DNA of 64,000 bases from an uncultured Gemmatimonadales bacterium (GTDB lineage: Bacteria > Gemmatimonadota > Gemmatimonadetes > Longimicrobiales > Longimicrobiaceae), in assembly GCA_963716255.1 (NCBI GenBank), contig OY970303.1, positions 320,001 to 384,000 on the forward strand. The letters run 5' to 3'. Below the pieces are notes generated by a model. It was not told the DNA's origin and ran no database searches. It saw only the letters and a list, made by a program, of their open reading frames with translations. A program made the translations under genes and the position numbers. Shown here piece by piece: positions 1-64,000 of the stretch. Position 1 is the stretch's first letter. The number at the start of each line of letters is the position of its first letter.

Positions 1-3000
1 ACCTCGGCCCAGATCCCGGCCAGGATCTCCTCGGCCGGGGTGCGCGGCGCGGTGAAGCCGTCCTCCGTGGCTGAGCCCGACGCCGCGGGCGCGGGGAGGG
101 CGCGCCGGTCCACCTTGCCGTTGGACGTGAGCGGAAGCGACTCCAGCACGACCACCACGCCCGGGACCATGTACTCCGGCAGCCGCTCCGCCAGGTGCCG
201 GCGAAGCTCGGCGGCGGCGGGCGTGGCGCCGGCCTCGGGGACCACGTAGCCCACCAGGCGCGCGGCGCCGCCGGCGTCCTCGCGCACGGTCACGGCCGCC
301 GCGCGCACCTCGGGGTGCCGCTCCAGCACGGCCTCGATCTCCCCCGGCTCGATGCGGAAGCCGCGCACCTTGACCTGGAAGTCCGTCCGCCCCACGTACT
401 CCAGCTCCCCGTCCGCGCGCCACTTCACCCGGTCCCCGCTCCGGTACATCCGCGCCCCCGCCTCTCCCGAGAACGGGTCCGGGACGTACTGCGCCGCCGT
501 CAGCTCCGCACGCCCCAGGTACCCCCGCGACACTCCCGCCCCGCCCACGTACAACTCCCCCGGCACCCCCACCGGCACCGGCGCCGCATTCGCGTCCAGC
601 AGGTACACGCGCGCGTTGCCCACCGGCCGCCCGATGCTCACCGGCTCCCCCGGCCGCACCCGCGCCACCGTGGTGTTCACCGTGGCCTCCGTGGGACCGT
701 AGTGGTTCCACAGCGCCACTCCCGGGAACGCCGCGAAGGTGCGCTCCGCCAGCTCCGCCGGCAGCGCCTCTCCCCCCAGCAGCACCGCTCGCAGCCCCGA
801 CGGACGCGGCGCCTCTCCCGAGCGCACCAGCTCCAGCATCGCGCTCCACAGCGACGGCACCCCCCCGAACGACACCCGCTCGTGCCCGGAGATGGCCTCC
901 AGCAGCGCGCCCGGGTCGCTCACCGTCTCCTCCGGGAGCACCCACACCGGCTCCCCCCGCAGCAGCGGCGGGAACAGCTGCCGCACGTGCGCGTCGAAGC
1001 TGAGCCGCGACACCAGCGGCAGCGCGAAGCCCTCCGCACCCAGCACCGTCTCGTCGAACCAGGCCAGGTAGTTGGACAGCCCGCCGTGGGTCACCAGCAC
1101 GCCCTTGGGCGTGCCCGTGGAGCCCGAAGTGTAGATGACGTACGCCAGGTTCTCAGGCGAGACGGAGATCCCGCTGGCGTCCGCGGAAGGGCCCCCACCC
1201 GGCTCGCTCAGGCTCGCCACCCTCCCCCAATTCCGGGGGAGGGATTCCTGACCCTCCGCACCGTCGTGATCCTCCATTTCCACGCGCACGACCGCGCCGG
1301 CGAACCCGTCGACGCGCGCGGCCAGCTCCGCGCTGGTCACGACGGCGGCGGCGCCGGCGTCGGACAGCATGAAGCGCAGGCGCTCGTCGGGGGAGGCGGG
1401 GTCCAGGGCGACATAGGCGGCGCCGGCCTTGAGGATGCCCAGCACGGCGACGACGGTCGCGGAGCCGCGCTCCAGGAGGAGGGCGACGCGGCCGTCCGGG
1501 CCGGCGCCGAGGGCGCGCAGGCGGCGGGCGAGGGCGTCGGCGCGGCGCTCCAGCTCGGCGAAGCTGAGCGTCCCGTCGGCGGCGACGACCGCGGGGGCGT
1601 CCGGGGTGCGCAGCGCCTGCCCGGCGATGCGCTCGTGGACGGGACGCGACAGGTCGTACGGGCGGGCGGTGGCGTTCCACTCCTCCAGCACCTGCCGCCG
1701 CTCGTCCGGGCTCATCAGCGGGAGGTCGGCGATGCGCTGGTCGGGGTCGGCGGCGATCCCGTCCAGCAGCGCGGCGTAGTGGGAGGCGATGCGCTCCGCG
1801 GTCGCGCGGTCGAACAGGTCGGTGGCGTAGGAGAGGCTGCCACGGATGTCGTCCGCCGTCTCCATCAGCGTGAGGATGAGGTCGTACTTGGCCGACTCCA
1901 TCCGCGCGCCGTACAGGCCGATCCTGAGGCCGTCCTCCGGCTGCGCCTCCGCCCCGGGGGCGTTCTGCAGCGAGAACATCACCTGGAACACCGGGCTGCG
2001 GCTCAGGTCGCGGTCCGGGGCCAGCTCCTCCACGATCCTCTCGAAGGGGAGGTCCTGGTGGGCGTACGCGCCGAAGGTCCGCTCGCGCACCTGCCGCAGC
2101 AGCTCGCGGAAGGTGGGGTTGCCGGACAGGTCGGCCCGCAGCGCCAGGGTGTTGACGAAGAAGCCGATCAGCGCCTCGATCTCGCTGCGGTTCCGGTTGG
2201 CGATGGGGGTGCCGGCGATCACGTCGTCCTGCCCCGCGTGGCGCGCGAGCAGCGCCTGCCAGGCGGCGAGCAGCGGCATGAAGAGCGTGGCGCCCTCCGC
2301 GCGGGCCAGCTCCCGCAGCGCGGCGGAGGTCGCGGCGGACACGCGCACGCCCACGCTGCCGCCGTGGAAGGTGGGCGCGGCCGGGCGGGGGCGGTCGGTG
2401 GGGAGCTCCAGCACCGGCGGGTCGCCGAGCTGGTCGCGCCAGTAGGCGAGCTGCGCCTCCAGGCGCTCGCCGGAGAGCCGCTCGCGCTGCCACACGGCGA
2501 AGTCGGCGTACTGGATGGGGAGGTCGTCCAGCGGCGACTCGGCGCCGCGCGCGAAGGCCTCGTACAGCGCACCCATCTCGCGCAGCAGCACGCCGATGGA
2601 CCAGGCGTCGCTGACGATGTGGTGCATCGTCAGGAAGAGGGCGTGCTCGTCCGGGGCCAGGCGCAGCAGCTCGGGGTGGAAGAGCGGCCCGGCCGACAGG
2701 TCGAAGGCGCGGCGCCCCTCGGCGAGGGCCCGGCGGTCCAGCTCCGCCTGCCGATCGGCATCGGAGTACGACCCCAGGTCCGTCACCGGGAGCTCCAGGG
2801 GGCGCCAGGGGAGCACCACCTGCACCGGCTCGCCCTCCTCCACCTCGAACACGGTGCGCAGCACCTCGTGCCGGCGGACGATCTCGCCCAGGGCGCGGGC
2901 GAGGGCGTCCGCGTCCAGCGCGCCCTCCAGGTGGAGCACCGTGGGGACGTTGTAGAGCGGGTTCCCGGGGTCCATCTGGTCCACGAACCAGAGGCGCTGC

Positions 3001-64000: not shown

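What the first reader, a model, noticed from the sequence alone, without database searches (positions are those of the whole stretch)
1170..63552. A family of palindromic DNA cassettes has colonised one specific loop of NRPS A domains, in frame
Seen: 12 of 18 A domains carry a 50-230 bp cassette, at 1170, 7934, 11182, 14400, 17726, 28900, 37553, 40778, 44027, 56886, 60185 and 63443, with a 13th heptamer-only remnant at 34179. The cassettes are built on CCCTCCCCC-n6[13 protein letters not shown] hairpins. All lie between the 'GEVVALD'-like strand and the A3 motif ([12 protein letters not shown]), in one orientation, and all keep the frame. Host domains belong to different specificity classes (Thr, Asn, Ser, Leu-like, Lys-like, Ala-like, acidic-like), so module duplication alone cannot explain the distribution. 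I saw no full copy in C, T or E domains or in spacers. Known: REP-like palindromes and Rickettsia palindromic elements can insert in frame into proteins, and this loop is a variable surface region of A domains. Inference: this is a site-targeted or gene-conversion-propagated coding repeat. It could be a selfish element exploiting a permissive site repeated many times in the genome, or a shared homology/nicking anchor just upstream of the specificity-determining A3-A6 segment that promotes subdomain swapping.
Basis: partly seen in the sequence, partly recalled or inferred. Interest (0 to 1): 0.9.

Follow-up and report, generated by a model that had tools for sequence, protein, structure and literature searches.

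The report
Hairpin repeats colonise one NRPS loop
Short hairpin DNA repeats that occur hundreds of times between this soil bacterium's genes also sit, in reading frame, inside its peptide-building enzymes, almost always in one and the same variable loop, which they likely reached once or a few times and then spread through by copying between similar enzyme modules.

Summary
Real, and larger than the window. Eleven of the 12 listed cassettes are true copies; 60185 is degenerate. They belong to a genome-wide modular repeat family: 565 cassettes, 487 intergenic. Of 58 in-frame coding copies, 56 lie just upstream of the A3 motif of adenylation domains (423 such motifs; P about 1e-98), and 55 of those 56 face the same way. 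The alpha unit has the architecture of the BoxC/PIT/TM triplex repeat. Inverted units bracket the genome's only standalone DUF559 nuclease gene, and 14 of 19 strong DUF559 loci in this genome and relatives; no RAYT was found. Cassette similarity is decoupled from host-domain similarity, near-identical modules carry different cassette alleles, and the left flank travels with the cassette. In cyanobacteria the same hairpins enter many NRPS sites, so tolerance alone does not explain the exclusivity. Best reading (0.6): founder insertion into a dispensable loop, then spread and refreshing by short gene conversions. No support for a specificity-swapping anchor. The scan noted this loop and the DUF559 link before in other genomes; I found no paper. 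New variant of coding palindromic repeats.

The parts
1170..1252 (-). beta unit plus short tail, in frame in the pre-A3 loop (A3 at 1142)
   Evidence: HMM hit 1190-1252, score 58; ORF open
7935..8077 (-). alpha+beta cassette, Thr-type A domain (A3 at 7908)
11182..11230 (-). lone alpha unit replacing the native loop (A3 at 11160); loop length normal
14400..14542 (-). alpha+beta cassette, near-duplicate of the 7935 module (A3 at 14373)
17727..17869 (-). alpha+beta cassette, 92% like the 14400 copy in a core only 37% identical (A3 at 17700)
28900..29124 (-). alpha+alpha+beta cassette with tail, Ser-type A domain (A3 at 28872)
34179..34217 (-). heptamer-repeat remnant of the same repeat system (A3 at 34174)
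37554..37681 (-). alpha+beta cassette, Thr-type A domain (A3 at 37527)
   Evidence: z -5.8
40779..40906 (-). alpha+beta cassette (A3 at 40752)
44028..44155 (-). alpha+beta cassette, near-duplicate of the 40779 module (A3 at 44001)
56886..57022 (-). alpha+beta cassette, Asn-type A domain (A3 at 56859)
60185..60349 (-). long loop of unique sequence with a weak alpha remnant; borderline member (A3 at 60165)
   Evidence: score 14.3, no other match in the genome
63443..63550 (-). alpha unit followed by heptamer tandem repeats (A3 at 63432)
6490..19695 (-). NRPS gene, 4 A domains, all carriers
36112..46008 (-). NRPS gene, 3 C-A-T modules, all carriers
50836..64000 (-). NRPS gene running off the window end; carriers at 56886 and 63443, borderline at 60185

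Best explanation
The cassettes are in-frame copies of a genome-wide BoxC/TM-type hairpin repeat family that occupy one dispensable loop of NRPS adenylation domains, and they likely spread from one or a few founding insertions by short gene conversions between paralogous domains. Shown: the family is mostly intergenic; coding copies are confined to the pre-A3 loop, share one orientation and frame, replace the native loop, and stop before an in-frame stop codon of the next repeat module. Shown: inverted units bracket the DUF559 nuclease gene. Inferred: (1) the family is made or kept mobile by DUF559 cassettes; (2) a founding copy entered the loop in an ancestor of the genus or family; (3) conversion tracts running from the short strand on the left to the highly conserved A3 DNA on the right carried the loop into domains of any specificity without touching the binding pocket; (4) once in place, the copy recombines with intergenic copies and neighbours, which swaps, adds and deletes units while keeping the ends and frame; (5) selection only removes frame-breaking or stop-bearing versions, and the peptide is likely neutral.
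For: Site: 56 of 58 coding copies at A3; target is 1.6% of coding DNA; P about 1e-98. Orientation 55 of 56; alpha ends in one frame 40 of 40, beta 37 of 39, although the other readings are mostly stop-free in intergenic copies (30-64 of 88 against 74 of 88), and intergenic copies show no strand bias (151 against 134). Not one duplication: 41 changes on the core tree of 415 domains; 45 carrier groups of 55 at 90% identity; cassette against core identity rho -0.07 over 496 pairs; 32 of 36 pairs with cassettes >=90% alike have cores only 28-44% alike. Flank hitchhiking: carrier-carrier identity rises only in the 10 codons left of the loop (0.66 against 0.52); neighbours of carriers that are carriers climb 0.25, 0.32, 0.39, 0.52 towards the loop, base rate 0.14; F-x-G-x-x-V flank in 41 of 55 carriers against 56 of 333 others. 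Founder allele: one beta variant is 14 of 40 in coding copies but 8 of 264 intergenic, and the commonest intergenic variant is 122 of 264 against 1 of 40. Allele swapping: modules 89-98% identical on both sides carry different cassette subtypes or unit numbers; loop copies interleave with intergenic ones on the cassette tree (16 changes for 32 copies). Same junction and frame in six same-genus genomes. Tolerance alone fails: cyanobacterial NRPSs carry such hairpins at 17 other sites against 7 pre-A3, and a8-a9, described as very tolerant (PMC9056781), has 0 long outliers in 292 here. Loop is dispensable: only segment with many long outliers (44 of 275); a2-a3 naturally holds whole methyltransferases (PMC8341866).
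Against: No conversion event was caught with exact donor and breakpoints; the flank signal could also reflect an insertion preference or structural fit, and one unrelated window also reaches 0.38. Left junctions vary in detail. 8 of 32 loop cassettes are as close or closer to an intergenic copy, which also fits fresh insertion. Other phyla colonised the same loop independently in all frames and both orientations, so the loop attracts repeats without a shared founder. Occupancy per site (56 of 423) is near that of intergenic gaps (487 of 4665). Trees of 130-nt cassettes are weak. Large clusters have no carriers (0 of 65, 0 of 37), which conversion does not by itself explain. DUF559 activity on the repeats, translation and enzyme activity are untested.
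Confidence: 0.6

Rival explanations
1. Repeated independent insertion: a mobilising enzyme, likely DUF559, places units at a preferred DNA context found left of A3, in fixed orientation, and selection keeps in-frame events.
For: DUF559 is bracketed by inverted units in 14 of 19 strong loci; cassette content is very varied (alpha, beta, heptamers); loop copies interleave with intergenic ones; the loop is hit independently in other phyla; flank motif enrichment could be a target.
Against: Intergenic flanks do not resemble the NRPS flank; cassettes replace rather than interrupt the loop and I saw no target duplication by eye; a target preference would not fix the reading frame at 37 of 39, nor enrich a rare allele; cyanobacterial copies show no such site restriction.
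Confidence: 0.2
2. Driven conversion (homing-like): DUF559 or hairpin-induced breaks bias conversion between A domains in favour of the cassette, so it spreads selfishly through paralogues.
For: All conversion evidence of the best explanation; intact-looking DUF559 (Pfam 126.7 bits) with cognate ends; TM loci are unstable in E. coli (PMC4666352); up to 15 of 24 domains occupied in one cluster.
Against: Breaks at the hairpin would normally convert the carrier to the empty allele; degenerate and shrunken copies exist; most clusters are empty; no direction of conversion was measured.
Confidence: 0.1
3. The cassette is a maintained recombination anchor that promotes exchange of the A3-A6 specificity segment.
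For: Position just upstream of A3; natural exchanges target the A core, often from A3 (PMC8097286 passages); shared homology among unlike domains.
Against: Carriers are no more discordant across the loop than non-carriers (0 of 23 against 3 of 135; 0 of 27 against 22 of 197; 3 of 36 against 21 of 220); the paper reports diverse boundaries with no need for a repeat.
Confidence: 0.04
4. The encoded Pro/Gly-rich peptide or the RNA hairpin has a function (partner binding, translational pausing, or phase variation through C/G runs) and is selected at this site.
For: Fixed frame and orientation; same peptides across the genus; one frameshift in an alpha C-run outside the window.
Against: Near-identical modules differ in or lack the cassette; arm changes are paired at DNA level; 87% of domains lack it; the frameshift may be a sequencing error and one non-carrier has a frameshift too.
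Confidence: 0.04
5. One ancient insertion inherited by module duplication only.
For: Some carriers are duplicates (4 of 36 close cassette pairs); changes on the tree are fewer than shuffled (41 against 54).
Against: Cassettes 90-94% alike in cores 28-44% alike; 37 specificity codes.
Confidence: 0.02

Closest known systems
BoxC / PIT / TM intrastrand-triplex repeats (Holder et al. 2015, PMC4666352; abstract, introduction, part of discussion and passages read)
   Same: The alpha unit read on the opposite strand has the pyrimidine-purine-purine three-tract layout and the CCG second loop of type B; 116 relaxed and 4 strict TMECO matches in this genome; multicopy, mainly intergenic, often in inverted pairs.
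   Different: In E. coli always intergenic and not linked to a mobile element according to the paper; here 20 of 116 are in frame in genes, units are chained with beta, gamma and heptamer modules, and they bracket a DUF559 gene. The beta unit carries an extra hairpin.
Rickettsia palindromic elements (85 of 728 inside ORFs in R. felis; PMC1166351 passages; Ogata 2000 recalled)
   Same: Palindromic repeats that invade coding and non-coding DNA; about one in ten copies is coding.
   Different: No sequence link tested or expected; here 56 of 58 coding copies sit at one homologous position of one domain family rather than in many unrelated genes (that dispersal is recalled).
REP/BIME and REPIN-RAYT systems (recalled)
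   Same: Modular composite repeats enriched between convergent genes (175 cassettes in convergent against 27 in divergent gaps); cognate nuclease gene framed by inverted units.
   Different: No Y1/RAYT transposase found; the partner is a Vsr-like PD-(D/E)XK DUF559 protein.
a2-a3 interrupted adenylation domains such as TioN (PMC8341866, PMC9056781; passages read)
   Same: Insertion between motifs a2 and a3 of an active A domain.
   Different: The insert there is a 260-270 aa methyltransferase; here a 15-75 aa repeat-derived peptide with no catalytic fold.
A-core recombination in NRPS evolution (Baunach et al. 2021, PMC8097286; passages read)
   Same: Recombination between paralogous A domains bounded by conserved motifs.
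   Different: Those exchanges change specificity; the inferred tracts here are short, lie upstream of A3 and leave the pocket unchanged.

Membership tests
BoxC/PIT/TM repeat | Three tracts: pyrimidine arm, purine arm, second purine tract (class II) | tested here: met
   116 relaxed-loop matches, all inside mapped cassettes, 2 in the window; applies to alpha
BoxC/PIT/TM repeat | Exact E. coli TMECO consensus | tested here: not met
   only 4 strict matches, none coding; these are lineage variants
BoxC/PIT/TM repeat | Multicopy, dispersed, intergenic | tested here: met
   487 of 565 cassettes intergenic, with 58 coding exceptions
BoxC/PIT/TM repeat | Folds into an intrastrand triplex in vitro | not testable with these tools
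   needs CD/NMR; only hairpins were folded
REP/REPIN-RAYT | Cognate Y1/HUH RAYT transposase in the genome | tested here: not met
   PF01797 0 matches in G000, 96.7% complete
REP/REPIN-RAYT | GTAG or CGTC tag at the stem foot (definition recalled) | tested here: not met
   absent from both HMM consensus lines, read by eye
REP/REPIN-RAYT | Nuclease gene framed by inverted copies of the repeat | tested here: met
   met by DUF559: 14 of 19 strong loci by HMM on both sides; 0 of 5 weak loci
Rickettsia palindromic element | Palindromic repeat in both coding and non-coding DNA, frame kept | tested here: met
Rickettsia palindromic element | Sequence homology to RPE families | not tested
   no RPE profile available; Rfam gave 0 matches at E<=1 over 37000-45000
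Rickettsia palindromic element | Coding copies scattered over unrelated genes (recalled) | tested here: not met
   2 of 58 outside the A3 loop
MITE | Terminal inverted repeats plus target-site duplication | tested here: inconclusive
   loop cassettes are direct chains that replace host sequence; no duplication seen by eye in 13 paralogue pairs; no clean empty site available
Interrupted A domain (a2-a3) | Insertion between a2 and a3 | tested here: met
Interrupted A domain (a2-a3) | Insert is a catalytic domain | tested here: not met
   Pfam finds only C, A, A-C-terminal and T families in the 36115-46008 protein
Homing endonuclease system | Nuclease cuts the empty allele and drives conversion | not testable with these tools
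   needs biochemistry or strain-level polarity

The most novel reading that the evidence does not exclude
DUF559 nucleases are the missing mobilisers of BoxC/TM repeats, and in this lineage the repeat has become a selfish element that homes between paralogous NRPS modules: it uses the hundreds of copies of one dispensable loop as a private niche and spreads by nuclease- or hairpin-triggered biased gene conversion, across domains of any specificity.
Probability: 0.2. Interest if true: 0.85.

Novelty: new variant of a known kind. Interest (0 to 1): 0.6.

Why it matters
The cassettes are a likely neutral tracer of short gene conversion between NRPS modules that are only 30-40% alike. That makes the extent of such exchange measurable, an open question in how assembly lines evolve and stay homogeneous. 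They mark, with dozens of natural examples, a loop that accepts 15-75 foreign residues or full replacement, a candidate site for tags, splits or domain insertion. They tie the long-unexplained BoxC/TM repeats to a candidate enzyme. They can also break alignments and assemblies of NRPS genes in these soil bacteria.

Tried and rejected
RAYT search: none. Rfam over 37000-45000: no match. Recombination-anchor test: negative but low power. Stop codons as the cause of orientation bias: rejected. Single insertion plus duplication: rejected. BLAST-based junction mapping over-extended into GC-rich flanks and was not used for counts. First hairpin-pairing regex for alpha was out of register and was redone. 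The reversed-genome control for the TM pattern is weak because the pattern is asymmetric. My gene caller missed the window's first gene, so coding status was redone with an open-frame test; the two sets of 58 differ by one member each. Unselected NRPS clusters of two Acidobacteriota genomes gave only weak enrichment with a generic hairpin scan (2 against 5 and 3 against 6, most others chance-like; one real copy in a C domain). Public runs held at most 0.17 of the words and laid contigs were fragments of relatives, so expression could not be assessed. PDB search with a wrong frame gave nothing; repeated in frame, the two printed alignments skip this loop. The AlphaFold job never returned, so surface exposure rests on alignment and literature. 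Paper searches for a prior description found none: DUF559+palindromic+REP, DUF559+repeat+flanked (20), adenylation domain+palindromic+in-frame insertion+repetitive element (21), boxC+palindromic+endonuclease (33), NRPS+intragenic+repeat+REP element+adenylation domain (83), Longimicrobium+NRPS (8, listing only). The library lacks most subscription papers; no supplements were read.

Full report
Setting. The window is G000:C1:320001-384000 of an 8.42-Mb, 73% GC single-contig genome. It is most likely a Longimicrobiaceae (Gemmatimonadota) genome. This is inferred from record titles that carry the same cassettes and from earlier scan notes on this genome. The window is one NRPS cluster on the minus strand with 18 A3 motifs.

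Observation. Eleven of the 12 listed cassettes are clear hits to profiles of the alpha and beta units. The 60185 site is unique sequence with a weak remnant, and the heptamer remnant at 34179 is real. All lie just upstream of A3 in open frames. Arms change in pairs. Alpha stems in loops occur as three complementary types (13, 11 and 2 of 30), beta stems are C-G in 108 and T-A in 65 of 189 copies outside loops, and the second beta hairpin has two co-varying types, 26 and 9 of 36 in loops. The conservation is therefore at DNA level.

What it is. Profiles find 786 units in 565 cassettes, with almost none in the reversed genome. Of these, 487 are intergenic, favouring convergent gaps (175 against 27 divergent; background 568 against 681). 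Intergenic copies are chains of alpha, beta, a gamma module and heptamer repeats. The alpha unit on its opposite strand has the layout of the BoxC/PIT/TM triplex repeat: 116 relaxed and 4 strict matches (definition from PMC4666352). No Y1/RAYT gene was found. The only standalone DUF559 gene is bracketed by inverted beta units. Among 19 strong DUF559 loci from this genome and relatives, 14 have alpha or beta hits on both sides, 2 on one side, and 3 show related hairpins by eye; 5 weak loci have none. DUF559 is described as common in Vsr-like PD-(D/E)XK endonucleases (PMC12907096 passages). That it moves the repeats is inference.

Site restriction. By an open-frame test 58 of 565 cassettes are coding; 56 lie within 260 nt upstream of one of 423 A3 motifs, and 55 of those face the same way. 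The two exceptions are an ArsA-like linker and an oxoprolinase-like protein (names from my reading of the sequences). No copy lies elsewhere in 1.6 Mb of NRPS genes. One heptamer family shows the same pattern: 60 intergenic, 11 in the loop, all sense, 0 in other coding DNA. Eighteen further loops bear heptamer traces, against 0 in each of seven control windows. The most abundant module, gamma (638 intergenic), occurs once in a loop. Its TGA is in the loop's frame in 49 of 58 intergenic chains, and loop copies end before it, which points to selection for an open frame. A2-A3 is the only inter-motif segment with many long outliers (44 of 275; T-C 7 of 133; the other 12 segments 0). The a2-a3 region naturally holds whole methyltransferases (PMC8341866).

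How it spread. Duplication alone fails: carriers span 37 specificity codes and 45 groups at 90% identity, and cassette identity is unrelated to core identity. Random insertion into a tolerant site also falls short. Frame and orientation are fixed although other readings are mostly open, and a rare beta allele dominates coding copies. In three cyanobacterial genomes (28 A domains; genomes picked on one hit each, regions picked on A3 motifs) the same hairpins occupy 17 other NRPS positions against 7 pre-A3, so NRPS modules have many tolerant sites that are unused here. Homology-driven spread fits better. Similarity among carriers peaks in the codons just left of the loop and decays outward. Modules nearly identical on both sides hold different cassette subtypes, unit numbers or a decayed copy. 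Loop copies interleave with intergenic ones on a tree of 130 alpha+beta cassettes (16 changes, shuffled 28.8). The same junction and frame recur in six same-genus genomes, and 16 of 32 A3 sites carry units in six G005 stretches chosen on hits. Against this: no single event was resolved; the flank signal could be a target preference; 8 of 32 copies are as close or closer to intergenic ones; whole clusters are empty (0 of 65, 0 of 37); per-site occupancy is similar to intergenic gaps.

Anchor idea. Carriers show no more discordance between the parts before and after the loop than other domains (388 domains), so there is no sign that the cassette promotes specificity swaps. Power is low.

Breadth. 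Of the 80 titled, 44 are Longimicrobiaceae or Gemmatimonadota and 36 are other groups, including Thermoanaerobaculia, cyanobacteria, Verrucomicrobia, Chloroflexota, Dyella and Prevotella. The other groups use all three frames and both orientations, which indicates independent entries; a few of those hits look like chance. No matching control scan at another motif was possible. Two Acidobacteriota genomes showed only weak enrichment; in the Dyella genome 4 of 4 hairpins were pre-A3.

Verdict. A real coding repeat of the BoxC/TM type that behaves like Rickettsia palindromic elements but, in this lineage, is confined to one homologous loop, most likely through founder insertion and inter-module conversion. 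I found no paper in six targeted searches. The scan noted both the loop and the DUF559 link before in other genomes. Translation, enzyme activity, loop structure and nuclease action are untested. New variant of a known kind; interest 0.6.

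Noticed in passing
L001:1380-1905 (G000 125112-125636) and L016, L018, L022, L023, L025, L026, L039: DUF559 cassettes occupy the same gap of an aromatic-CoA operon in seven relatives, but the nucleases are only 57-64% identical while the downstream hydratase is 86-96% (6 loci), and the end repeats switch between beta and alpha. This suggests repeated replacement at one site or fast evolution.
   Followed up: partly
G000 1719924 and 3685371: The only two non-NRPS coding copies: alpha in the linker of a two-domain ArsA-like ATPase, and reversed beta in an oxoprolinase-like protein.
   Followed up: partly
G000 393324 (just beyond the window): Frameshift inside the C-run of an alpha copy before A3; sequencing error, pseudogene or slippage.
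   Followed up: no
G000 whole genome: 415 NRPS-type A domains in 122 genes, 1.6 Mb or about a fifth of the genome. Carriers cluster by gene cluster: 15 of 24 and 8 of 11 against 0 of 65 and 0 of 37.
   Followed up: partly
L229-L238 (cyanobacterial genomes G031, G040, G041): TM-type hairpins and other small repeats sit in frame at many places in NRPS genes, a natural map of tolerant sites in C and A domains.
   Followed up: partly
L176-L198 (G032): Many A domains have a much shortened A2-A3 segment (42-55 residues against about 68), often filled with local repeat-like peptides.
   Followed up: no
window 60185-60315: About 100 nt of loop sequence with no other match in the genome; origin unexplained.
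   Followed up: partly
window 48826: A domain with a longer A2-A3 segment (89) that looks like ordinary protein, with a close counterpart (85% core identity) in G005.
   Followed up: no
window 3106-6339 and 19697-22981: Two single-module NRPS genes of similar length whose A-domain upstream regions are nearly identical, suggesting a recent duplication.
   Followed up: no
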